A DNA stretch of 64,000 bases from an uncultured Chloroflexia bacterium (GTDB lineage Bacteria; Chloroflexota; Limnocylindria; QHBO01), in the NCBI GenBank assembly GCA_963812115.1, contig CAWEUD010000005.1:64048-128047 (forward strand). The letters are read 5' to 3'. Each line of letters opens with the position of its first letter. Within the stretch, counting starts at the first letter, position 1. The notes under the pieces were generated by a model. The model searched no databases and was not told the DNA's origin. It saw only the letters and a program-made list of their open reading frames with translations. This document shows positions 4,484 to 42,224 of this stretch, piece by piece. The translations under genes and the position numbers were made by a program.

Positions 4484-5796
4484 CCGCGACCGCCACCGAA
4501 CGCTGGCTACAACGCCGCCGGCTGGTGCCGCCGGTGTGGGCGCGCTACACGGACCTCGTCGTCGAGCGCGGCGAGGGCAGCTGGATCGAGACCATCGACG
4601 GGACGCGCTACCTCGACTACACCAGCGGCATCGGCGTGACGAACACGGGCCACGCTCACCCGCGGGTGGTGGCGGCCATCGCCGACCAGGCGGCTCGCGT
4701 CATCCACGCCCAGCAGAACATCCTCCACCACAAGCCCGGGCTGGAGTTGCACGAGCGCCTGCCGCGGACGATGCCGGGTCTGGATGCCGGCGAGGAGGCG
4801 GCGCTCTTCCTCTCGAACTCCGGCGCGGAGGCGATCGAGGCCTCGGTCAAGCTCGCCAAGCAGGCCACCCGGCGGACGGGGATCGTGGCCTTCCGCGGTG
4901 GCTTCCATGGTCGCACCCACGCCGCCATGGCGCTGACGAGCTCCGGCGTGAAGTACCGCGGCCACTTCGAACCGGTCCCCGGCGGCGGCGTCTTCCACGT
5001 CCCGTTCCCGTACGTCCTGCGCAATCCCACCGGCCGGACCGATGGCGCCGCACTCGCCTTCACGCTATCGGCCATCGACGAGCTGTTCGCGACCATGATC
5101 TACCCCGATGACGTGGCGGCCTTCCTGGTAGAGCCGATCCTCGGCGAGGGCGGGTACGTCGTGCCGCCCGATGGCTTCCTCCCCGCCCTGCGCGAGGTGG
5201 CCGATCGCCATGGCATCCTGCTCATCGCCGACGAGGTGCAGACCGGCTTCGGCCGCACCGGGAAGATGTGGGCCACCGACTGGTACGACGCGCGCCCCGA
5301 CATCGTGGTGATGGCGAAGGGCCTGGCGTCGGGCATGCCGCTCTCCGGCATCCTCGCGCGCCGCTCCCTGCTGGAGCTGCTCGGCCCGGGGACGCACGGC
5401 GGCACCTACGGCGGCAACGCGGTCGCCTGTGCCGCGGCGCTCGCCACGCTCGATGTCATCGCCGCGGAGGGACTGCTGCAGAACGCGGCGTACCAGGGCG
5501 AACGGCTGCTCTCGGGCATTCGCCACGTCGCCGCGGCCCAGCCGGCCGTGGCCGAGGTTCGAGGCCGCGGGCTGATGGTCGGGATCGAGTTCGCCGATCC
5601 GGAGACGCTGGCGCCACGACCGGACCTGGCCAAGGTGGTCCTGCACGAGGCGTTCGACCGCCGGCTGCTGCTGCTCACCTGCGGGACGTACGGGCAGGTC
5701 GTGCGCGTCATCCCGCCGCTCGTCACCACCGATGCCGAGATCGACTCGGCCGTGGGAATCATCGGCGCCGCGCTGGAGGCGATCGGGCGGGCCTAG
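4456..5796 (+). CDS. Class III PLP aminotransferase (4-aminobutyrate/omega-amino acid aminotransferase-like)
   Basis: 'DYTSGIGVTNTGH', 'NSGAEAIE', 'FHGRT', 'DEVQTGFGRTG', PLP-Lys 'MAKGLASG'; exact start uncertain. Confidence 0.9.
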   Translation: MDQHATDVLTATATERWLQRRRLVPPVWARYTDLVVERGEGSWIETIDGTRYLDYTSGIGVTNTGHAHPRVVAAIADQAARVIHAQQNILHHKPGLELHERLPRTMPGLDAGEEAALFLSNSGAEAIEASVKLAKQATRRTGIVAFRGGFHGRTHAAMALTSSGVKYRGHFEPVPGGGVFHVPFPYVLRNPTGRTDGAALAFTLSAIDELFATMIYPDDVAAFLVEPILGEGGYVVPPDGFLPALREVADRHGILLIADEVQTGFGRTGKMWATDWYDARPDIVVMAKGLASGMPLSGILARRSLLELLGPGTHGGTYGGNAVACAAALATLDVIAAEGLLQNAAYQGERLLSGIRHVAAAQPAVAEVRGRGLMVGIEFADPETLAPRPDLAKVVLHEAFDRRLLLLTCGTYGQVVRVIPPLVTTDAEIDSAVGIIGAALEAIGRA

Positions 5797-6386
5797 GCGT
5801 CCTGGTCGGCCAGCCGCCGATAGCGCGACCCGTACCAGATCAGCGGATCAGCGCTCTCGTCGAAGCCGGCAGCGACGATCTCCCCGATGAAGATGGTGTG
5901 GTCGCCGCCGGGGTGCCGCGCGATCAGGCGGCAGTCGAAGTAGGCGATCGCGGCGTCCAGGATCGGCGAACCGGTCTCGGCCTCGTGCCACGGCGCGTCG
6001 CAGAATCGGCGCAGCTTGGCCGCGGTGGTGGGCTGCGCGAAGCAGTCGGCGATGGCTTGCTGCTGCTCGCTCAGCACGCTAATCGCGAACGAGTGACTGC
6101 CGAGGATCGCCTCGTGCGTCTCCGACGTGTGGCCGATGCTCGCCATCATGAGCGGCGGATCGATGCTGATGCTGGCGATGGCGTTGGCCGTCATGCCGGC
6201 CAGCAGCGGGCCCTGCCGCGCCGCGACCACCGTCACGCCGGTCGCAAAGCGGGCCATCATCGAGCGCAGCATCCGTCCCTGCTCCTGCGTCATGGGGGCT
6301 ACCGCCCCGCCCGCCGGCTGCCGCTCGATGTGCTGGTGGGGGGCTGCGGCGCCCTCGGCGGGTCCCGCCTGGTTGTCCCTGCTCAC
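5793..6386 (-). CDS. Flavin reductase-like protein
   Basis: 'MARFATGVTVV', 'GMTANAIASISIDPPL', 'GGDHTIFIGEI', 'PLIWYGSRY'; GTGA overlap with upstream gene. Confidence 0.9.
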   Translation of the reverse strand: MSRDNQAGPAEGAAAPHQHIERQPAGGAVAPMTQEQGRMLRSMMARFATGVTVVAARQGPLLAGMTANAIASISIDPPLMMASIGHTSETHEAILGSHSFAISVLSEQQQAIADCFAQPTTAAKLRRFCDAPWHEAETGSPILDAAIAYFDCRLIARHPGGDHTIFIGEIVAAGFDESADPLIWYGSRYRRLADQDA

Positions 6387-6673
6387 CGGTAGCGTTCGAG
6401 CTTCTCGAGCACGGCGTTGGCCGCCATCCAGTCCTGCGGTCCGGGCCGCTCGCCACGGTGCAGGTGCAGCAGGGGCACGCAGTTCCAGGACGGACCGTCC
6501 TCGCGCGGGATGTGGATCGCCAGGTCCCCCACGTCGAGCAGGGCGACGATCGTCGCGCCGCGTTCGCCACCACGTGCCAGCGCCCGCTCGAGGGTCTCGA
6601 CGAACCCGTCGGCCGACCCGTACTCGGCACGGATCCTCATGGCGATCAGACCGGCCGCCGGCAGCTGGATCAC
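6383..6673 (-). CDS. Small hypothetical protein
   Basis: ORF coupled by GTGA overlaps to both neighbours; no family recognised. Confidence 0.55.
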   Translation of the reverse strand: MIQLPAAGLIAMRIRAEYGSADGFVETLERALARGGERGATIVALLDVGDLAIHIPREDGPSWNCVPLLHLHRGERPGPQDWMAANAVLEKLERYR

Positions 6674-7038
6674 CGCAGGACCTCCAGCAGCCACCCGAAT
6701 GCGGTCACGGACCCGATCACCGCGAAGCCGACGAACGAGAGCACCAGCAGCAGGCCGATGAGACTGGCCCAGGCCGGCGCAGAGGCCGCTCGACTGGTGA
6801 CCGACCCTTGCGCCAGCCAGACCGCCAACGCATCGCCATCGACCCGGAGCTCGACGTCGTCGTCGAGCGGGACGACGATCACCCGGTCGCGGCCATCGGC
6901 GCCCTCGCCGGTGATCAGCGCGCGGGACGCCTCGCCATCCCGGACCAGGAGCGCGTGGTTGCCGCTGGCGTTGACCAGGGGCTGCGCTTCGAGGCGCCCC
7001 GTGGCTCCCAGCGGCAGCGCGTCCGATAGCTCATCCAT
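6670..7038 (-). CDS. Hypothetical protein with C-terminal TM helix
   Basis: C-terminal hydrophobic 'WASLIGLLLVLSFVGFAVIGSVTAFGWL'; TATCCT -10-like box 9 nt upstream of ATG. Confidence 0.6.
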   Translation of the reverse strand: MDELSDALPLGATGRLEAQPLVNASGNHALLVRDGEASRALITGEGADGRDRVIVVPLDDDVELRVDGDALAVWLAQGSVTSRAASAPAWASLIGLLLVLSFVGFAVIGSVTAFGWLLEVLR

Positions 7039-7071
7039 CGTCGGCCGAGGATAGCAGCCGCCCGGGGCCCC

Positions 7072-7986
7072 TCAGCGGTCGAGGCGCTCGAGGGTGGCCA
7101 CCAGGGCCCGGATCGTGTCGGCGTTGATCGGGTCCAGCACCAGCTGCACGTGCGCGACGCCCTCGTCGGCGAAGGCGCGCAGCAACGGCTCCAGCACGTC
7201 CGGCTCTCCGCTGATGGCATCGGCATCTTCGGTCTCGAGGTCGCCCATCGACCGGCCCTGCGCCCCCGGGAACGCCACGAAGAGCGCCAGGGTGCGCTCG
7301 ATCTCGGCGGGGTCGCGTCCCGCGGCCCGACAGGCGTCGTCGACCTTTTGGCGCATCGGGCGGTAGCCGTCGGGCGAGTTCCCGAACCAGGTGAACCAGG
7401 CGTTCCAGGACTGCACGTGCGGGAGCGTGATGCCGAGCATGCGCGGCCCTTCGGAGCCGACCATCAGCGGCGGCCCGGCGGGCCGCGGCCCTCGCGGCAG
7501 GAGCTCGCAGTGGTCGAGGTCGTAGTAGGTGCCGTGGAAGTCGCAGCGGCCGTCGCGCAGCAGCGTTCGCACGATGGTGAAGGCCTCCTCGAAGCGGCTG
7601 ACCCGATGGTCGTACGGGTAGCCGTAGGCGGCGTACTCCGCCTCGTTCCAGCCGGCCCCCAGGCCCAGGATCAGCCGGCCCCCGCTGATCTCCTCGATCG
7701 TCGCCGCCATCTTCGCGATCATGGCCGGGTTGTGGAAGCTGGTGGACGCCACCAGCGGCCCCAGCGCCACGCGGCGGGTCACCGCGGCGAGCGCCGCCAG
7801 GCTCGTCCACGCCTCCCACGGCGCTCGCGTCGGCAGGCCATCGTCGCGGTAGAGCAGGTGGTCGCCGACCCAGATCGAGTCGAGGCCGATCGCCTCGGCC
7901 GTCTGTGCCATGTGCCGTTGCTCGTCCCACGTCGCGACGTACTCGACCTCCGGAAGCTGCACCCCGACCTTCAACGGCCTCGGCAT
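7072..7986 (-). CDS. LLM-class (luciferase-like) flavin/F420-dependent oxidoreductase
   Basis: 'GLDSIWVGDHL', 'WEAWTSLAALAAVTRRVALGPLV', 'EISGGRLILGLGAGW'. Confidence 0.9.
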   Translation of the reverse strand: MPRPLKVGVQLPEVEYVATWDEQRHMAQTAEAIGLDSIWVGDHLLYRDDGLPTRAPWEAWTSLAALAAVTRRVALGPLVASTSFHNPAMIAKMAATIEEISGGRLILGLGAGWNEAEYAAYGYPYDHRVSRFEEAFTIVRTLLRDGRCDFHGTYYDLDHCELLPRGPRPAGPPLMVGSEGPRMLGITLPHVQSWNAWFTWFGNSPDGYRPMRQKVDDACRAAGRDPAEIERTLALFVAFPGAQGRSMGDLETEDADAISGEPDVLEPLLRAFADEGVAHVQLVLDPINADTIRALVATLERLDR

Positions 7987-7989
7987 CGG

Positions 7990-10033
7990 TCAGGCGACCC
8001 GCTTCGTCTTCTTGCTGACGTAATCGACCAGGACGTACTCGCCGAGGTGCTCTGGCTCGACGTAGAAAGCGCGCCCGCGGTTGATCCGGCTCATCAGGTC
8101 GACGAATTCGGAGAGGTACCGGGAGCGCTCGAGCATGAACGTGTTGATCACGATCCCCTCCCGTGTGGCACGCCCGACCTCACGCAGGGTCGACTGCATC
8201 GTTCTGCTGGTTGGGGGGTAGGCGAACTCGACCTGGCCGTTCTGGATGTGCGCCGTTGGCTCGCCGTCGGTGATCACCACGATCTCCTTGTTGCCACCGC
8301 GGCGCCTGCCCAGCAGCTGCCGCGCGATCATCACGGCGTGCTGCAGGTTCGTCCCGTACTCGAACTCGTACGGTGACAGGGTGGCGATCGCCTCCGGCTT
8401 GATCTGGCGGGCGTAGTAGGCGAAGCCGACGACGTACAGGCGGTCGCGCGGGTAGCGGGTGTGGATCAGGGTGTGCAGGGCCATCGCCACCCGTTTGGCC
8501 GCGGTCGAGCACCCTCGCAGCAGCATGGATCGGCTCATGTCGAGCAGCAGAACGGTCGAGGAGACCGTCGTCTCCTCGTGCCGCCGGACCTCGAAGTCCT
8601 CCACGTCGAGGCGCAGCGGCACGCCGGGAGATCCGTCCGCGCCGCGTGCCATGGCGTTGAAGAGCGTGCGGTTGAGGTCCACCACGAATGGGTCGCCGTG
8701 CGCCCAACGCTTCGTCTCGTCGGTCGCCTCGCCGCCGTTCCCCGACGATCGGGAGCGGATGCCCGCCCAGCGACTCCCGACGCAGGCGGCTGAAGATGTC
8801 GGTGAGGGCGCGCATGCCGAGCTTTCGCGCCGCACGTGGTGTCAGCTCGAGGCGGCCGCCGTCGCGCTCAAGGTAGCCGGCCTCCTCCAGTGCCCGTGTG
8901 AGCTCGCGGAGCTGGTCCAGGTCTTCCGCGGCCTCGTCGCCGCCCAGGTCCCGCAGCAGCTCCGCGTCGAGCCGGTCGAGGCCCTCCGGATCGCGCGCCG
9001 CCAGCAGCTGCTCCTCCATCTCGTCGTACTGCTGCTGCCGGTCGATCGCTGCGAGCGCATCGACCAGGCCCATCGGCTCGTCACCCGAGAAGGGATACGG
9101 CTCGCCGAAGGGCGTCTCGGGCCGCATCGACTGCAGGTTGCCGGTGAGGCGTGCCATGTCCCAGCGCAGCCGGTCGTCGCGCAGCAGGTCGTCCATCATC
9201 TGATGTAGCTCGTCGCGCATCTGCGGGCTCATCCCCGCCAGCAGCGAGGCCATCTGCGAGGCCTGCCGGTGCAGGTGATCGACGAGCTCGTCGACACTGC
9301 CGATCCCCGGCGGGAAGTACGCTCCGTGGTGCGCCATGAAGGCGTCGAAGTCAGCGCGCGTATCGGCCCCCGAGGCGTGCTTCTCGAGCAGGCCGTTGAG
9401 GTCGCGCACCATCTGGCGCACGCCGTCGAGATCCTCGGGCGTCAGGCCCGCGACGCCCTCCTTGAGACCCTGGAAGTAGGTCTGCATCAGCTGCTGGCGG
9501 AGCTCGTCGGTCAGGGCGTTGAAGGCGTCCCGCGCCGCTGGATCCATGAACTCGTAGTCACGCAGCCCGTGCAGGCGCCCGGCGAGTCCGGGCGGCAGGG
9601 CATCCAGCCGGTCGCGCCGCTGCTGGGCCGCTCGCCGCAGCACCTGCTCCGCCATCCGTGCCTGCTCCTGCTGTTCGCCCGGCGGCGCGTCGAGGGCAGC
9701 CTGCTCCGCCTGTCGGAGGCGCCGGTCGATCCCCGCCCGCTCCTGGCCCAGGACCTCGTCCAGGCGCTCCGCGAGGCCGTCGAGCACGCCGTCGAGGTGG
9801 GCGCGCTCCAGCTCCGCCTGCCGGCGCTCGCGCATCCGGTCGACCATGCGGCGCAGGCCCGGCACGTCGCCACCGCGCGTCCCGCGCATGCCGCGCTGCA
9901 TGAGCCGCTGCAGCGCGCGTCGGATGTCGCCCTCCGCCAGGACGTCGTCCGACAGGGCGTCGAGCACGTCGTCCGCGTCGAAGGGCGGCAGCTGCTGGCT
10001 CCCGTCCCAGCGGGAGTAGCGGTAGCGGCTCAT
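7990..10033 (-). CDS. VWA-domain protein (Rv0959-like), frameshifted near 8745
   Basis: N-part 'MSRYRYSRWDGSQQ' (8180-10033 frame) switches after 'GGHPLP' to the 7990-8835 frame with MIDAS-like 'LLDMSRSM', 'GTNLQHA', 'ITDGEPTAH'. Confidence 0.85.
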
Positions 10034-10051
10034 GTGCGTGCGGCGGCCGAG

Positions 10052-11469
10052 CTAGCGCGCATAGCGGACGCCGCCACCGCGCCGCTCCTTGTTGAGCCGC
10101 CGGTTGAGGTGCAGTCCCTCCAGGACGAACTCGACGCCGGAGGCGAGTCCGGCCGGGGATTCGCCCACGTCGAGCCGGCCCACCGCGCGGCCGAGCTCCG
10201 GGATCTCCTTGGCGAGGCGCTCGTGGTGAGAGGATGGGACGCCTTCACCGGCCTCGGCATCGGCGCCGGAATCGAACTGCTCGATCAGCGGGACGAGCTC
10301 GGAGAGCGGGAAGTGGCGGTTGAAGACGTTGACGATCGCCCGCTGCACCAGCTTCTCGATCACGCGGTCCTCGCGCGTCTCGTCGCCCAGCGTCTCGAGC
10401 TCGATCTTGCCGGCGGTCGATGCCACCACCGCCGGCAGGTCGCTGATGCGCGGCGCCGCCACCGGCTCACCGAGCCGCACGGCGCGCTTCAGCGCCGCCG
10501 CCAGGAGCGTCTCGTGGTTCGCGATCGTCACGCGCACGCTCACGCCGGAGCGCTGGCTCACCTCCGACGAGCGGCGGGCGAGCTGCGAGAGCTCGGCCAC
10601 GATCTCGCGCATGAAGCCGGGCACCTGCACCGGGACCGATGTCGACGCCTCGTCCTCGAAGGCCATCCGCTCGGCCTCCACGATGGCGATCTCCACTTCG
10701 GGATCCTCGGGGTAGTGCGTGCGAATCTGCGCCCCGAAGCGGTCCTTCAGCGGCGTGATGATCCGTCCACGGCTGGTGTAGTCCTCTGGGTTTGCCGATG
10801 CGATCACGAACAGGTCGAGCTCCAGGCGGACCTTGTAGCCGCGGATCTGGACGTCGCGCTCCTCCATCAGGTTGAGGAGTCCGACCTGGATCCGCTCCGC
10901 CAGGTCGGGCAGCTCGTTGAGGGCGAAGATGCCCCGGTTGGTGCGCGGCAGCAGGCCGTAGTGGATCGTCAGCGCATCGGAGAGGTAGCGGCCCTCGGCC
11001 ACCTTGATCGGGATCCACCTCGCCGACGAGGTCCGCGATGGTGATGTCCGGTGTCGCCAGCTTCTCGCCGTAGCGATCGTCGCGATGCAGCCAGGCGATG
11101 GGCGTCTCGTCGCCGTACTGGGCGACCTGGGCGCGCGCGAACGGGCTGACCGGATCGAGCGGATCATCGTGAAGCTCCGCCCCGGCGACCTCCGGCACCC
11201 ACTCGTCGAGGAGCGCGACCAGCGAGCGCGCGATGCGGCTCTTGGCCTGGCCCCGCTCCCCCAGCAGGATGATGTCCTGCCCGGCGATGATCGCGTTCTC
11301 GATCTGCGGCAGGACCGTCTCGGTCGTAGCCCAGGATCCCCGGCAGGAACGTCTCGCTGCTGCGCAGCTGCGCCAGCAGGTTCGCGCGCATCTCCTCCTT
11401 CACGCTGCGCGGCCGATAACCGGAGGCGCGCAGCTCAGTGAGCGTGGCGATGGTGGGGGCTGAGGTCAT
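10052..11469 (-). CDS. AAA+ ATPase (Mg-chelatase-like, Rv0958 type), frameshifted near 11323 and 11010
   Basis: Reconstructed over three frames: 'TLTELRASGYRPRSVKEEMRANL', Walker A 'LGERGQAKS', '[25 protein letters not shown]', Walker B 'IFALNELPDL', 'ASANPEDYTSRGRIITPLKDRFG'. Confidence 0.87.
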
Positions 11470-12410
11470 GCGCTGGCTCCTTCGGACGGCTGGGACGCTG
11501 GGAGATGCGGGTAGCTGGCAACGGCGACGGCCACCTCGGCCGGCCCGCAGACGCCGCGCTCGTCGAGCGCGGCGAGGAAGGCCGCACGGGAAGCGAGCTC
11601 GCGCTCGAGCTCACCGACGTCGGTCCCGAGGGATGCGGCCAGGGCAGCATAGGCCGCGTCGTCATGCACCAGGGCCCGCGAGCTGCGACCGCCGTCGTCG
11701 GGCAGCGTCGGCGGGACGGGCAGGCGCTGGGCGCCGGTGAGGCTGGGCGAGCGGCCGCCGTCGAGCGCGGCCAGCCTGACCGGCGCGAGGTCTCCCGCAG
11801 CATCGGTCCGCAGGTGCCACGCCTCCTCGACGCGCCGGTACATCCCGGCGGGCGTGAAGTAGGCCGAGTACTGGAGGTAGAGCGTCAGGCCCGCGAGGTC
11901 GGCGTCCGCGGAGCGCAGCTCGCCGCGCAGGCAGGCCAGCGCCTCGTCGAGCGAATCGGCGTGCATCGTCCCCCGAGTCCGTAGCCCTGCCCGGCCAGGC
12001 GGAGCGCCGCCCGCGCGTTGGCGCCCCAGACGTAGATCGGCAGGTGGTCGCTCATCTCGTTGACGAGCAGGTAGCCGCGATCGGCGCCGATCTCATCGGT
12101 CCACGACATGTCGTGGCCCCAGCCGCGCAGGAAGACACCCACCGTGTCGTCGGGCAGGAAGTCGACCAGGGCGGACAGCGTGGTGGTCTTGCCGGCCTGC
12201 GGGGCCTCAGAGGCGAGCATCACCCCGCGGCGGCGAGCGACGACCGTCCACAGGGTCGCCATCAGCCGTGCGTCGAGGCTGCCGGAGCGGATGATCTCGA
12301 CCGCGCTCATCGGCCGCGGCAGCGTCCAGTGGTACCCCCACCAGCCCTCCGGAAAGCGTCGGTACCAGTCGACGAGCGCGCGGTCCATGGTGTCCCGCAC
12401 GGTACGCGGC
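11466..12410 (-). CDS. CpaF/VirB11-like P-loop ATPase core without N-terminal domain, frameshifted near 11972
   Basis: Walker A 'EAPQAGKTT', Walker B-like 'LLVNEMS', His-box 'G-TMHADS' restored by adding one G to a G5 run; start approximate. Confidence 0.7.
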
Positions 12411-12587
12411 ATGCCCGCGGGGTGCAACCAGCCGAGCCCGCGAGCCGCCCGCACCCGGACCTTCGGTACCCGGGCCGAAACAGGACCCAGGCGCGGCCAT
12501 CGCACACGCACATTTGGGGCGTGCGGTGGACTCTGGTCCAGATCTGGGTAATTGCCAAGTACTACCTCCGACGGGTCTCATCTGGGT

Positions 12588-13274
12588 ATGACTCGTAGCC
12601 TTTCGCCGCCGACCTCCGCCGCGGACGCCCGCGACGCCTACCGCGCCTTCGCGGTGGCCGTCGAACGGATGCGGGACGGCGAGCAGGTGGTGGCGCTCAT
12701 CAATCCTGACGCGCTGTCGCTGGATCCCGGTGCGTCGAGCGTCTGGTTGAGTGCGCGGCTCACGATCGGCGAGCTCCAGCGGCGCTTCCTGCCGCAGTGC
12801 GACGAGCGGTGCCGAAACGTTCCCCACGATCCCCACGCCTTCGTGGTCCTTGCCGACCTCGTCCTCGACCCGACCGAGGCTCGCCGGATATCGTGGTGGG
12901 AGGCATGGACGGACAGCCTGCAGCGCGCCCAGCGCCTGCAGGACATCTGGTACGCCGGAGCTCCGGTCCTCCCCGATTCGCCGGATGCGCTGCGCCTGGC
13001 GGCCGGCACCAGTCTCACCCGGCTGACCGCCACCGATCCCTACTGGGTCCACTACGACAATACCGACCAGGAGGTCCTGTACCGGATCGAAGATGGCTCC
13101 CACGCTGGCGACGCGTTGATCGCCACGTCGTTCGGCCTGTCGGCGCTGCTGCCCGGCCTGGCCGGCTCGCTGATTGCTCCTGACCACCCCACGGCCCGGG
13201 ATCCCGACACGGCCGCACGCATGCTGGCGGCCGGCTGGTCCGCCGTCGAACGCGGGCTCCCCTTCGAGAACTAG
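12588..13274 (+). CDS. Hypothetical protein
   Basis: Clean ~228-aa ORF with globular composition (several Trp/Tyr/His), divergent from the ATPase operon. Confidence 0.65.
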   Translation: MTRSLSPPTSAADARDAYRAFAVAVERMRDGEQVVALINPDALSLDPGASSVWLSARLTIGELQRRFLPQCDERCRNVPHDPHAFVVLADLVLDPTEARRISWWEAWTDSLQRAQRLQDIWYAGAPVLPDSPDALRLAAGTSLTRLTATDPYWVHYDNTDQEVLYRIEDGSHAGDALIATSFGLSALLPGLAGSLIAPDHPTARDPDTAARMLAAGWSAVERGLPFEN

Positions 13275-13736
13275 TCCGGACTTCCTGCCGAGCCCAGGAG
13301 CCATCGCTGCCGGGCCGCGCGCCAGATGAACGTGGCCCGCATCACCCCGCCGGCGAACCAATCGAGCATCGCCCCCACGCGGCCTCCCGGCCCCACCCGG
13401 AAGTCGATCTCGTCGTGGATCCAGGTCCCGCGACCCGCCGGGCTGAAGCTGTGCGTGTGGTGGAAGCGCGCGACCGGGCCGGAGAGCGTCTCGTCGACGA
13501 AGCGCTGCGGCGCCTCGCGTTCCAGCAGGCGGACGACCCAGCGCCGTCGCAACGGCCCGATCCCGTAGCTGAACGTGAAGACGCTGCCCGGTTGCGGCGG
13601 CGCCGGCTCGACCGCCTCGAGCCGAATGCGAGACCGGCGGCGGCATCAGGCGACCGAGGTTGGCCGGATCGTCGAAGAAGGCGAAGACCTCCTCGATGGG
13701 TGCCGCCACCCACGCGCGGCTGCGGACGGTTGGCAT
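13271..13736 (-). CDS. SRPBCC/START-fold protein, frameshifted near 13630
   Basis: 'AAPIEEVFAFFDDPANLGRLMPP' then a frame switch to 'FVDETLSGPVARFHHTHSF..GTWIHDEIDF'. Confidence 0.82.
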
Positions 13737-13767: not shown

Positions 13768-14049
13768 TCAGGCGGGTGGCAGGAACCGCGGCAGCGCCGT
13801 GGCTGTCGCCACGATGTGGCGGCAGGCCTCCGGGAGGTCGGTGCACGAGCACGTGTAGCCAAAGCGGTCGCCGGTGGCGGTCAGCTCGACGCGCGCCGGC
13901 CCATCCGCCGCGTTGACCGTCGCGACCGCCCGATCCGGCGTGACCGATTCGAACACGACGTCATCGGCCAGGGAGACACCGTCGGCCCAGCCGCGAGCAT
14001 CTGCCAGGGCACGCAGGTACGACTCGGATACGTAGTCGGCCAGGCTCAT
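13768..14049 (-). CDS. Small SWIM zinc-finger protein
   Basis: SWIM motif CxC-x6-CxH 'YTCSCTDLPEACRHIVA'; GGAG SD. Confidence 0.8.
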   Translation of the reverse strand: MSLADYVSESYLRALADARGWADGVSLADDVVFESVTPDRAVATVNAADGPARVELTATGDRFGYTCSCTDLPEACRHIVATATALPRFLPPA

Positions 14050-41084: not shown

Positions 41085-42224
41085 CAGCCGATCCCCAAGG
41101 GCGAGCGAGGCACGGCCGCGACAGGCGGTGCCGGAATCGGCGGCTCGGAGGGCCCGCCCGACAGGACGCGCTCCAGGCCGTCGCGGACCGCTTCGAGCGA
41201 TACCCGCCCACCGAGCAGCGGAACGCGCTTGACCTCGCGGCCGAGGGCCAGCTGCGCCATGTCGGCGTACTGGCCGTCGTTCGCCTCGACGCAGACGATC
41301 TGCTCGTACCGGTCGGCGATCTCCTTCAGCTCGTCGGAAAGCATGGGATGGATTCGGATCGGCCGGAAGAGCGCGTACTCGCTGGCCAGCGGAGCCGCCA
41401 CGCGGCTGACGATCCCGTAGGCGATCATCAGGGTCTTGGCATCCACGTTCCAGCCGTGCTCGTAGAACGCGTAGCGCTTCGCGACTTCGGCGTGCCGGTG
41501 CTTGGCGGCGTAGAACTGGCGCAGGTACTCGTCGGCGTCGGCGGTCGCGGGCTCGCCGGCGTTCGGGCCCGTGCTCGTACATCAGCACGCCGGCGAAGAA
41601 GCGCGGCTTCCCCGGCTCGTGCTTTCCCAGCGGCGGGATGCTGCGCTCGACCACGCGGAGGCCATCGCGGAGCTCATCGAGGTCCACCACCTCGTTGAGG
41701 TGGCCGACGAACGTGTCGGTCAGGACGACGACCGGGCTGCGCGACTCCTCGGCCGCGTTGAAGGCCTCGACGGTGATGCGGAAGGCCTCCGCCACGCCGT
41801 TCGGGTAGAAGGCGAGCGGACTGTAGTCGCCGGTGCTGCCGTACCTGACCTGCATGATGTCGCCCTGGCCCGGCATCGTCGGCATGCCAGTCGCCGGACC
41901 CACGCGCTGCACGTTTACGAACACGGTCGGGATGCCAACCTTCTGCCCGTAGCCGACCGCCTCCTGCATCAGGCTGAAGCCCGGGCCGCTGGTGGCGGTG
42001 AAGGATTTTGCGCCCGCGAGCGAGGCGCCCATGATCGCGTTCGCGCTGGCGATCTCGTCCTCCTCCTGGAGGAAGCGGAACTCGGGGTGCTCACTGGCCC
42101 AGCCGGAGGCGACGTTCAGGATCTCGGTGGACGGAGAGATGGGATAGCCGGCGTAGTAGCTGGCCCCTGCCGCGACCGCTCCGCGGAAGACGGCTTCATT
42201 ACCCTGGGTCAGCTTCCGCGTCAT
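41084..42224 (-). CDS. korA: 2-oxoacid:ferredoxin oxidoreductase alpha subunit, frameshifted near 41567
   Basis: 'GNEA', 'GYPISPSTE', 'QEEDEIA', 'ATSGPGFSLMQE', 'RVGPATGMPT'; C-half 'IAYGIVSR', 'VEANDGQY' in the +1 frame. Confidence 0.9.

What the first reader, a model, noticed from the sequence alone, without database searches (positions are those of the whole stretch)
7072..12410. Coupled operon: orphan CpaF/VirB11-like ATPase, AAA+ chelatase-like ATPase, VWA protein and LLM oxidoreductase
Seen: four minus-strand genes joined by an ATGA overlap and gaps of 18 and 3 nt. The first has Walker A/B and a His-box of secretion ATPases but no N-terminal domain and no pilus/T2SS/T4SS neighbours. Known: AAA+/VWA pairs (MoxR-like, Rv0958/Rv0959-like) act as chaperones or metal-insertion machines. 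Inference: an undescribed two-ATPase + VWA remodelling system, possibly with the flavin/F420 enzyme as client.
Basis: partly seen in the sequence, partly recalled or inferred. Interest (0 to 1): 0.62.

Follow-up and report, generated by a model that had tools for sequence, protein, structure and literature searches.

The report
Stripped motor ATPase beside AAA+/VWA pair
A soil Chloroflexota genome carries a conserved three-gene operon in which a cut-down relative of the archaeal pilus/archaellum motor ATPase sits in front of an uncharacterised chelatase-like AAA+ ATPase and its VWA partner; the combination appears undescribed, but its function is unknown and the neighbouring oxidoreductase is only a passenger.

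Summary
Four minus-strand genes are joined by an ATGA overlap and by gaps of 18 and 3 nt.

- **Gene 1** is a roughly 307-aa ATPase made only of the catalytic domain of FlaI/GspE-type secretion ATPases. Its ortholog folds with pLDDT 92, and the best PDB matches are FlaI and afGspE.
- **Genes 2 and 3** are the Rv0958/Rv0959-type AAA+/VWA pair.
- **Gene 4** is a luciferase-like monooxygenase (LLM). It belongs to its own cassette with a flavin reductase.

Evidence for a link between the mini-ATPase and the pair:
- ATPase-AAA+-VWA is syntenic in 34 of 38 Limnocylindria loci and recurs in two other deep Chloroflexota lineages.
- 35 of 37 ATPase-bearing genomes also hold the AAA+ gene.

Evidence against an obligate link:
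- In most Dehalococcoidia and Thermomicrobiales genomes the genes lie apart.
- Four genomes keep the ATPase under purifying selection without the pair.

The link is therefore likely but not obligate. No pilus machinery is involved, and the idea that the LLM is the client is not supported.

The window has five frameshifts clustered over 4.9 kb. They are most likely long-read consensus artefacts: the extra bases sit at sites where relatives differ, and split copies occur only in long-read MAGs. Function remains unknown.

The parts
11466..12388 (-). Mini-ATPase, the catalytic domain of a FlaI/GspE-type secretion ATPase without the N-terminal domain. The intact ortholog P0001 is 307 aa. As given, the gene carries a 1-nt deletion near 11968. 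An alternative ATG lies at 12412.
   Evidence: Three-frame reading and tblastn. DNA alignment. AF2 pLDDT 92 and Foldseek to FlaI/afGspE. Pfam T2SSE scores only 12.3 bits against a cut-off of 24.9.
10052..11469 (-). ChlI/MoxR-like AAA+ ATPase of the Rv0958 type. The ortholog P0121 is 471 aa. The P-loop is non-canonical (GERGQAKS), Walker B reads NE, and PLKDRFG is present. As given, there are two +1 insertions, at 11325 and 11009.
   Evidence: Pfam AAA_5/Sigma54_activat/Mg_chelatase. PDB ChlI at E 7e-9. Motif conservation.
7990..10033 (-). VWA protein of the Rv0959 type. The ortholog P0122 is 680 aa. It has about 420 helical residues ending in a winged-helix-like unit, a disordered linker, and a C-terminal VWA domain with an intact MIDAS motif (DMSRS). 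As given, there is a +1 insertion at 8747.
   Evidence: Precomputed Pfam hits Mb0984_helical, Rv0959_3rd and VWA_2 on orthologs. VWA_2. AF2 model with pLDDT 69.5.
7072..7986 (-). Luciferase-like monooxygenase, 304 aa and intact. It is a neighbour in the same direction, 3 nt after the VWA stop. It is the first gene of a separate flavin monooxygenase cassette and is not part of the trio.
   Evidence: Pfam Bac_luciferase at 5.7e-50. TIGR03560 scores 191 bits, below its cut-off of 231. Synteny.
5793..7038 (-). Rest of the LLM cassette: a 122-aa ORF (6670..7038), a 96-aa ORF (6386..6673) and a flavin reductase (5793..6386).
   Evidence: Flavin_Reduct at 1e-44. Conserved with the LLM in more than 20 Limnocylindria loci, including those without AAA+/VWA.
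12552..13274 (+). Divergent 240-aa ORF with no family hit. It marks the upstream end of the operon, leaving a 163-nt divergent intergenic region before the ATPase start.
   Evidence: No Pfam hit. The same divergent neighbour occurs in L019, L029, L031, L034, L038-L042 and L047, and is absent from same-genus G004.
13274..13736 (-). SRPBCC (Polyketide_cyc) gene of the upstream unit. As given, it carries a +1 insertion at 13629, which belongs to the same local cluster of frameshifts.
   Evidence: tblastn splits into two frames. Pfam hit on the ortholog.

Best explanation
The locus is a three-gene operon of the soil Chloroflexota class Limnocylindria, and it starts at its own divergent intergenic region.

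**Gene 1.** It encodes a cytoplasmic ATPase, probably ring-forming, that is only the catalytic (RecA-like) domain of the FlaI/GspE branch of type-IV-filament motor ATPases. The usual N-terminal domain is replaced by a short conserved Trp-rich peptide (P-x2-W-W-G). The catalytic Lys, Glu and His are invariant, so it is probably active.

**Genes 2 and 3.** These are the widespread, uncharacterised Rv0958/Rv0959-type module. One part is a ChlI-like AAA+ ATPase. The other is a VWA/MIDAS protein with a long helical scaffold.

**Likely mechanism (inferred).** By analogy with BchI-BchD, CoxD-CoxE, NorQ-NorD and RavA-ViaA, the pair most likely acts as an ATP-driven remodeller or cofactor-insertion chaperone. 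The VWA protein would act as the adaptor. I infer that in Limnocylindria, and in some Thermomicrobia-like lineages, the mini-ATPase works in the same pathway as this pair, either as an accessory motor or as its client. The Trp-rich N-terminus is a candidate docking element. The link is facultative, because each partner can exist without the other.

**What is not part of it.** The LLM belongs to a separate two-component flavin monooxygenase cassette.

**Frameshifts.** The five frameshifts in this window are most likely consensus errors of a long-read metagenome assembly, so the real genes are probably intact.

**Shown:** gene order, folds, motifs, synteny, phyletic pattern, absence of pilus genes.
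**Inferred:** physical or functional coupling, ring formation, remodeller activity.
For: **Fold and family.** AF2 gives pLDDT 92 and pTM 0.91. Foldseek matches FlaI and afGspE at E about 1e-13 over roughly 300 columns. phmmer hits 2OAP at 1e-4, including the C-terminal helices. G66, K67, N110, E111 and H143 are invariant, and R185/R186 are nearly invariant.

**Family size.** 506 clusters at 50% identity, the full-length members 260-310 aa.

**Synteny.** The AAA+ gene lies directly downstream in 34 of 38 Limnocylindria loci. The VWA gene follows in all 28 loci whose contigs reach far enough. The trio also occurs in L056, L075, L091, L093 and G196. Linkage appears in three deep branches of the ATPase tree.

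**Phyletic pattern.** 35 of 37 ATPase-positive genomes have the AAA+ gene, against 49 of 164 ATPase-negative genomes. The odds ratio is 41 and Fisher p is 1e-13, not corrected for phylogeny.

**Not a pilus motor.** The complete genomes G145, G170 and G191 have the mini-ATPase but no T2SSF platform protein. In family relatives the Tad-like genes lie more than 600 kb away.

**VWA family.** Pfam Mb0984_helical and Rv0959_3rd hit the orthologs. MIDAS and AAA+ motifs are conserved.

**LLM is separate.**

**Frameshifts are probably artefacts.**
- At three of the four frameshift sites in the trio, the window carries both variants of a site at which relatives differ. Examples are [G/A]TC read as GATC, and GAC/ACC read as GACC.
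- Split trio genes occur in 5 of 15 long-read loci and in 0 of 24 short-read loci (p = 0.005).
- The window lineage shows no excess of amino-acid changes.
Against: **Coupling is not obligate.**
- 38 of 42 Dehalococcoidia/Thermomicrobiales-type loci have the ATPase without AAA+/VWA beside it. The AAA+ gene then lies elsewhere in the genome.
- G045, G068 and the genomes of L034 and L039 lack the pair. The ATPase there still evolves at dN/dS 0.135-0.155, the same as in linked genomes.
- The pair is common without the ATPase.

**The evidence is indirect.**
- The phyletic association is confounded by shared ancestry.
- There is no expression, interaction or biochemical evidence.

**Catalysis is uncertain.** The AAA+ P-loop (GQAKS) and Walker B (NE) are non-canonical, so hydrolysis may be altered.

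**One point about the frameshifts is unexplained.** I cannot say why long-read frameshifts concentrate in the trio and not in its neighbours. In other MFD loci there are 8 events in about 53 kb of trio genes and none in about 34 kb of neighbouring genes (p = 0.02).
Confidence: 0.55

Rival explanations
1. The mini-ATPase is functionally independent of AAA+/VWA. Under this reading, adjacency in Limnocylindria is inherited gene order and the ATGA overlap is incidental compaction in a small genome. The ATPase would be a stand-alone cytoplasmic NTPase with its own unknown role.
For: - The ATPase is unlinked in 38 of 42 distant loci.
- It is retained at dN/dS about 0.14 in genomes that lack AAA+/VWA.
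- The gap between AAA+ and VWA is itself prone to swaps. DUF1232, GNAT, a decarboxylase and other genes are inserted there.
- In Dehalococcoidia the commonest downstream neighbour is a DinB_2-like gene instead.
Against: - Linkage is kept or regained in three deep branches separated by more than 1.5 substitutions per site.
- 35 of 37 ATPase genomes hold the AAA+ gene.
- The ATPase was never seen in a family that lacks AAA+, apart from one weak partial hit in G030.
Confidence: 0.3
2. The trio, together with the SRPBCC gene, is truly pseudogenised in this genome. Under this reading the module is dispensable and is being lost, as it has been in some relatives.
For: - Five of the six frameshifts found in genes of the 64-kb window fall within 4.9 kb (p = 1.5e-5).
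- Relatives have lost AAA+/VWA (G045, G068) or all three genes (G016, G140).
Against: - The extra bases look like merged alleles.
- Frameshifts are confined to long-read MAGs.
- There are no nonsense mutations or deletions.
- Window-specific amino-acid changes number 19, against 12 specific to G004. That ratio is no higher than in intact neighbours, which show 24 against 11.
- The SRPBCC gene belongs to a different transcription unit.
Confidence: 0.15
3. The ATPase is the motor, or a remnant of the motor, of a Tad pilus, type IV pilus or archaellum encoded elsewhere.
For: - Its closest folds are FlaI, afGspE and CpaF.
- Family relatives have a Tad-like pair of T2SSF genes.
- Archaellum clusters occur in Chloroflexota (PMC12488501).
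Against: - It has no N-terminal domain.
- It is never next to platform or pilin genes.
- It is present in complete genomes with no T2SSF gene at all.
- It scores below the Pfam T2SSE cut-off.
Confidence: 0.03
4. The trio is a MoxR-VWA-type ternary conflict or anti-phage system.
For: AAA+/VWA pairs with a third component are known as conflict systems (own knowledge: Kaur et al. 2020). A weak bpMoxR Pfam hit appears at E 0.006.
Against: - No meaningful PADLOC hit; the only matches were weak RtcR-type AAA domain hits to the AAA+ protein, at E 0.001 or worse.
- The genes are very conserved (AAA+ 58-67% identical across the phylum) and vertically inherited in a stable core context. They are not in variable islands.
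- There is no effector domain.
Confidence: 0.05
5. The LLM is the client that the two ATPases and the VWA protein mature.
For: There is a 3-nt gap to the VWA gene here. The LLM lies within 300 nt downstream of the VWA gene in 14 Limnocylindria loci.
Against: - The LLM is absent from L003, L037, L045, L054 and all Thermomicrobia-type trios. It lies 0.6-3.3 kb away in six loci.
- It keeps its place beside the ATPase in L034, L039 and L047, where AAA+/VWA are gone.
- It has its own conserved partners, including a flavin reductase.
Confidence: 0.05

Closest known systems
Archaeal secretion/archaellum ATPases afGspE (PDB 2OAP) and FlaI/ArlI (PDB 4IHQ, 4II7)
   Same: - RecA-like C-terminal ATPase domain, including the C-terminal helices.
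- Walker A Lys, Walker B Glu and His-box.
- Best sequence and fold matches.
   Different: - No N-terminal domain (about 220 residues missing). A conserved Trp-rich 25-residue N-terminus stands in its place.
- Only 17-19% identity.
- No platform protein, pilin or archaellin genes.
- Found beside an AAA+/VWA pair.
TadA/CpaF (PDB 8RKD, 9E24), PilT and VirB11
   Same: Same superfamily fold and motif order.
   Different: The matches are weaker: E 1e-8 for CpaF and 1e-4 to 1e-5 for PilT and VirB11. These proteins have N-terminal domains and sit in pilus or T4SS loci.
M. tuberculosis Rv0958/Rv0959, annotated 'magnesium chelatase' plus a conserved hypothetical protein
   Same: - The VWA protein carries the Pfam families named after Rv0959 and Mb0984.
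- A ChlI-like AAA+ gene lies directly upstream.
- The pair is uncharacterised. The only functional test in the papers I opened found no DNA association for the M. smegmatis ortholog MSMEG_5512 (PMC7092591).
   Different: No mini-ATPase is reported beside the actinobacterial pair. I did not compare the AAA+ sequence with Rv0958 itself; that assignment rests on the partner's Pfam families.
BchI-BchD/ChlI-ChlD Mg-chelatase and the MoxR-VWA chaperone pairs (RavA-ViaA, CoxD-CoxE, NorQ-NorD, CbbQ-CbbO)
   Same: An AAA+ ring plus a VWA/MIDAS partner. ChlI is the best PDB sequence match for the AAA+ protein (E 7e-9).
   Different: - No ChlH/CobN-like substrate subunit.
- The VWA protein has a helical N-terminal region instead of an AAA-like one.
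- Non-canonical Walker motifs.
- An extra RecA-type ATPase.
SpoIIIAA of Bacillus (own knowledge)
   Same: A short (about 300 aa) secretion-ATPase-like protein that lacks the canonical N-terminal domain.
   Different: It is part of a membrane channel operon in sporulating Firmicutes. It was not tested here.

Membership tests
Secretion/type-IV-filament ATPase superfamily (Pfam T2SSE, PF00437) | RecA-like C-terminal domain with Walker A, atypical Walker B (hhhhxE), and His-box | tested here: met
   The motifs are APQAGKTT, LLVNEMSD and TMHAD. K67, E111 and H143 are invariant. Foldseek probability is 1.00 to FlaI, GspE, CpaF, PilT and VirB11.
Secretion/type-IV-filament ATPase superfamily (Pfam T2SSE, PF00437) | Score above the curated family cut-off | tested here: not met
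   12.3 bits against a cut-off of 24.9. NCBIfam FlaI scores 29 bits against 550.
Secretion/type-IV-filament ATPase superfamily (Pfam T2SSE, PF00437) | N-terminal (PAS-like) domain that forms the hexamer interface | tested here: not met
   The protein is 307 aa. The match covers residues of about 225-510 in FlaI and GspE. The full-length family members are 260-310 aa.
Secretion/type-IV-filament ATPase superfamily (Pfam T2SSE, PF00437) | Encoded with, or dependent on, a platform protein (T2SSF), pilins or T4SS parts | tested here: not met
   None in any locus. No T2SSF gene in the complete genomes G145, G170 and G191, which carry the ATPase.
Rv0958/Rv0959-type AAA+/VWA pair | VWA protein with Mb0984_helical, Rv0959_3rd and VWA domains | tested here: met
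   Precomputed Pfam hits on orthologs that are 96% identical to the window's product. VWA_2 and MIDAS DxSxS.
Rv0958/Rv0959-type AAA+/VWA pair | ChlI/MoxR-like AAA+ gene immediately upstream of the VWA gene | tested here: met
   18-nt gap. Pfam AAA_5/Sigma54_activat/Mg_chelatase. ChlI at E 7e-9. Direct comparison with the Rv0958 sequence was not made.
Mg/Co chelatase (BchIDH, CobNST) | Equivalog-level score to ChlI/BchI or ChlD, and a ChlH/CobN subunit | tested here: not met
   TIGR02030 scores 24.5 bits against 467, and TIGR02442 scores 22-26 bits against 779. No ChlH/CobN gene in the locus.
Anti-phage defence systems (PADLOC) and MoxR-VWA ternary conflict systems | Match to a defence-system model | tested here: not met
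   No hit for the ATPase or the VWA protein. The AAA+ protein gives only weak RtcR-type AAA hits at E 0.001 or worse.
F420-dependent LLM oxidoreductases (TIGR03560, Rv1855c type) | Score above the subfamily cut-off | tested here: not met
   191 bits against 231. Pfam Bac_luciferase is clearly met at 171 bits. A flavin reductase two genes downstream points instead to a two-component FMN system.

The most novel reading that the evidence does not exclude
The mini-ATPase may be a dedicated third subunit of a new class of cytoplasmic machine. Under this reading, a type-IV-filament motor domain was freed from membrane and pilus, perhaps derived from the archaellum ATPase that Chloroflexota acquired. 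It docks through its Trp-rich N-terminus onto the helical scaffold of the Rv0959-type VWA protein and works in series with the AAA+ ring. That would also give the first handle on the function of the Rv0958/Rv0959 pair, which is conserved in mycobacteria.
Probability: 0.25. Interest if true: 0.75.

Novelty: new variant of a known kind. Interest (0 to 1): 0.5.

Why it matters
Motor ATPases of the FlaI/GspE/PilB type are known only as parts of membrane-anchored filament or secretion machines. A conserved, soluble family that keeps the catalytic domain alone shows that the motor domain can be reused elsewhere.

Its recurrent coupling to the Rv0958/Rv0959-type AAA+/VWA pair offers a testable lead for that pair. 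The pair is widespread in Chloroflexota and, judging by the Pfam family names, present in mycobacteria, yet it has no known function.

For the scan itself there is a second lesson. Clusters of frameshifts in long-read MAGs can be merged-allele consensus artefacts and should not be read as pseudogenes without the reads.

Tried and rejected
- **Locus scan.** The first scan, with a 26-sequence alignment, found no conserved stretch to search with. A 9-sequence alignment worked.
- **Pfam PF27098.** It is not in the tool's library, so the named control genomes could not be used to show the pair in Mycobacterium.
- **Signals.** Simple promoter and terminator scans and Rfam found nothing in or around the operon.
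- **Dehalococcoidia neighbours.** DinB_2-like, phosphoribosyltransferase, methylmalonyl-CoA mutase, a LON substrate-binding-domain protein and a holin-like protein gave no coherent partner.
- **Genes between AAA+ and VWA.** DUF1232, GNAT, a PLP decarboxylase, PNPOx, an acyltransferase and a cyclase are variable passengers.
- **Mosaic test.** Sliding identity to G004 showed no mosaic block over the trio.
- **VWA model.** Confidence was too low (pTM 0.47) for a fold search.
- **Rejected readings.** Pilus fragment, defence system and LLM client were rejected for the reasons given under the rival explanations.
Full report
**Where the window lies.** The window is G000:C5:64048-128047, from a 2.16-Mb assembly in 44 contigs that is 79% complete. 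G+C is about 70%. The closest proteins come from MAGs labelled Candidatus Limnocylindria or Chloroflexota.

**Observation.**
- Four co-directional genes lie on the minus strand: mini-ATPase 12388..11466, AAA+ 11469..10052, VWA 10033..7990 and LLM 7986..7072.
- The first three genes are interrupted, and orthologs from the same genus (G004/L002) are intact at 307, 471 and 680 aa.
- tblastn and DNA alignments place a 1-nt deletion near 11968, +1 insertions at 11325 and 11009, and a +1 insertion at 8747.
- A fifth frameshift, at 13629, lies in the SRPBCC gene just upstream.

**Are the frameshifts real?**

*Clustering.* The window is collinear with G004 over nearly its whole length. Of about 46 orthologous ORFs, only the trio genes and one gene at 41564 are split. 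With the SRPBCC gene added, five of the six frameshifts fall within 4.9 kb (p = 1.5e-5).

*Three results point to assembly artefact rather than decay.*
1. At 11009, relatives read either ATC or GTC, and the window reads GATC. At 11325, relatives read GAC or ACC, and the window reads GACC. At 8747, the window combines the two halves of haplotypes that differ by compensating indels. This is what a consensus of mixed strains looks like.
2. Among 38 Limnocylindria species loci, split trio genes occur only in long-read MFD MAGs (L026, L041, L052, L054). They never occur in the roughly 24 short-read MAG loci. Counting the window, that is 5 of 15 against 0 of 24 (p = 0.005). G009 and G046 show the same splitting.
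3. A relative-rate count finds no excess of window-specific amino-acid changes in the trio. The trio shows 19 window-specific against 12 G004-specific changes, and intact neighbours show 24 against 11.

I put real pseudogenisation at about 15%. I cannot explain why these errors favour the trio over its neighbours, which also holds in other MFD loci (p = 0.02).

**Gene 1, the mini-ATPase.**
- *Family.* The family has no Pfam model. T2SSE scores 12.3 bits, below its cut-off, and close homologs are all annotated 'hypothetical protein'. The 50%-identity library holds 506 clusters at E ≤ 1e-3, the full-length members 260-310 aa.
- *Structure.* The ortholog P0001, 92% identical to the repaired window product, folds with pLDDT 92 and pTM 0.91. 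Foldseek ranks FlaI and afGspE first (E 5e-14 to 2e-13, TM 0.63-0.68 over about 300 columns). TadA/CpaF follows at 1e-8, and PilT, PilU and VirB11 at 1e-4 to 1e-5. The match covers only the C-terminal ATPase domain of those roughly 500-aa proteins.
- *Motifs.* P13, W16, W17, G18, G66, K67, N110, E111, S113, P117, Y119, W121, T141 and H143 are invariant, and R185/R186 are nearly invariant. The catalytic set is therefore kept, and a Trp-rich N-terminal peptide is conserved where the N-terminal domain would be.
- *Possible source.* Archaellum clusters with FlaI are documented in Chloroflexota (PMC12488501). They are a possible source for this gene, which I did not test.

**It is not a pilus motor.**
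- No platform, pilin or T4SS gene lies beside it in any locus.
- G000 has no T2SSF or T2SSE hit, though it is incomplete.
- Family relatives do have a Tad-like pair of T2SSF genes, but far away. In G055 they lie at about 709 kb, against 62 kb for the ATPase.
- The complete genomes G145, G170 and G191 carry the mini-ATPase and no T2SSF gene at all.

**Genes 2 and 3, the AAA+/VWA pair.**
- *AAA+.* It hits AAA_5, Sigma54_activat, AAA_3 and Mg_chelatase. Its best solved relative is ChlI (E 7e-9). Its P-loop (GERGQAK[ST]) and Walker B ([LI]NELPDL) are unusual but conserved across the phylum.
- *VWA.* The orthologs carry the precomputed Pfam families Mb0984_helical, Rv0959_3rd and VWA_2, with an intact MIDAS motif. 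A moderate AF2 model (pLDDT 69.5) shows about 420 helical residues ending in a winged-helix-like unit. A disordered linker and the VWA domain follow.
- *What is known.* The mycobacterial pair is uncharacterised. The papers I opened only list Rv0958 as 'magnesium chelatase'. A test for DNA association of the M. smegmatis ortholog was negative (PMC7092591, PMC11237697).
- *Defence.* PADLOC finds no defence model for the ATPase or the VWA protein; the AAA+ gives only weak RtcR-type domain hits.

**Is the trio a unit?**

*For.*
- The AAA+ gene follows the ATPase directly in 34 of 38 Limnocylindria loci, and the VWA gene follows in all 28 loci long enough to show it. Overlapping or near-overlapping stop and start codons are common.
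- The same order recurs in L056, L075 and L093 (Thermomicrobiaceae), L091 (Thermomicrobium) and G196.
- On the ATPase tree, linked genes sit in three deep branches, and at least five changes of state are needed.
- In an even sample of 201 Chloroflexota genomes, 37 have the ATPase and 84 have the AAA+ gene. Of the 37, 35 have both (odds ratio 41, p = 1e-13, not corrected for phylogeny).

*Against.*
- 38 of 42 distant loci lack AAA+/VWA beside the ATPase. The AAA+ gene, 61-63% identical, then lies elsewhere. In G041 it is about 1 Mb away on the same chromosome.
- The unlinked pairs have no other conserved upstream gene.
- The clade L034/L039/L047, and also G068, lost AAA+/VWA but kept the ATPase at dN/dS 0.135-0.155. 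Linked genomes show 0.12-0.18.

The link is therefore likely but facultative. I put functional coupling in Limnocylindria at about 55%.

**The LLM.**
- It is a Bac_luciferase protein, below the cut-off of the F420 Rv1855c subfamily.
- It is followed by two small ORFs and a Flavin_Reduct gene. The same four-gene cassette is conserved in more than 20 loci.
- It lies within 300 nt of the VWA stop in 14 loci, 0.6-3.3 kb away in six, and is absent from others and from all Thermomicrobia-type trios. In L034, L039 and L047 it directly follows the ATPase.
- It is a neighbour with its own partners, not a demonstrated client.

**Operon boundary.** A 240-aa ORF on the other strand (12552..13274) is a common divergent neighbour upstream of the ATPase. 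The operon therefore starts at the ATPase, after a 163-nt intergenic region. Simple promoter, terminator and Rfam scans found nothing.

**Comparison and novelty.**
- The AAA+/VWA pair belongs to a known but uncharacterised family.
- The mini-ATPase is an undescribed family within a known superfamily. It fails three of the features that define working secretion ATPases: the N-terminal domain, the family score and the machinery context.
- I found no paper describing their combination.
- Other agents in this scan reached similar readings on other genomes. I treated those as leads. My data agree on the fold and the trio. They add the phyletic pattern, the losses, the independence of the LLM and the artefact diagnosis. 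They contradict the statement that adjacency holds across the phylum.

**Verdict.** This is a real, conserved and apparently undescribed gene combination of unknown function. Interest is moderate.

Noticed in passing
window 8747-13629 and 41564: Six frameshifts sit in genes of the 64-kb window, five of them within 4.9 kb. The inserted bases look like merged alleles. Other long-read MFD MAGs show frameshifts in the same three genes but not in their neighbours. Why the trio is favoured is unexplained.
   Followed up: partly
window 5793-7986: LLM, a 122-aa ORF with a C-terminal hydrophobic stretch, a 96-aa ORF and a flavin reductase form a conserved four-gene cassette. It is probably a two-component flavin monooxygenase. 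The two small ORFs have no family hit.
   Followed up: partly
window 12552-13274 (+): A 240-aa ORF with no Pfam hit is conserved as the divergent upstream neighbour of the mini-ATPase in at least ten Limnocylindria species. It is missing from same-genus G004.
   Followed up: partly
L019:9338-10380, L021:4717-5232, L024:9308-9778, L042:9322-9795, L055:9301-9804: A DUF1232 gene, followed in L019 by a GNAT gene, is inserted on the same strand between the AAA+ and VWA genes in several Limnocylindria species. Other loci hold a PLP decarboxylase there (L045). In Dehalococcoidia, up to 2.7 kb of unrelated genes separate the pair (L104).
   Followed up: partly
L056-L097, for example L084:7936-9464: In 32 of 42 Dehalococcoidia-type loci, the mini-ATPase is followed by one or two paralogous proteins of about 230-245 aa. 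At least one of them carries a DinB_2 domain.
   Followed up: partly
window 13768-14049 (-): A 93-aa ORF lies between the aldehyde dehydrogenase and the SRPBCC gene. It is 99% identical in G004 and has only a weak SWIM zinc-finger hit (E 0.0055).
   Followed up: no
L038, L050, L055: Three contigs are filed under Steroidobacteraceae or Zixiibacteriota MAGs. They carry the Limnocylindria trio at 70-84% identity and are probably mis-binned.
   Followed up: no
window 10052-11469 and orthologs: The AAA+ family keeps Ala instead of Gly before the P-loop Lys (GERGQAK[ST]). It keeps Asn instead of Asp in Walker B (NELPDL). The mini-ATPase also has an Asn-Glu Walker B.
   Followed up: partly
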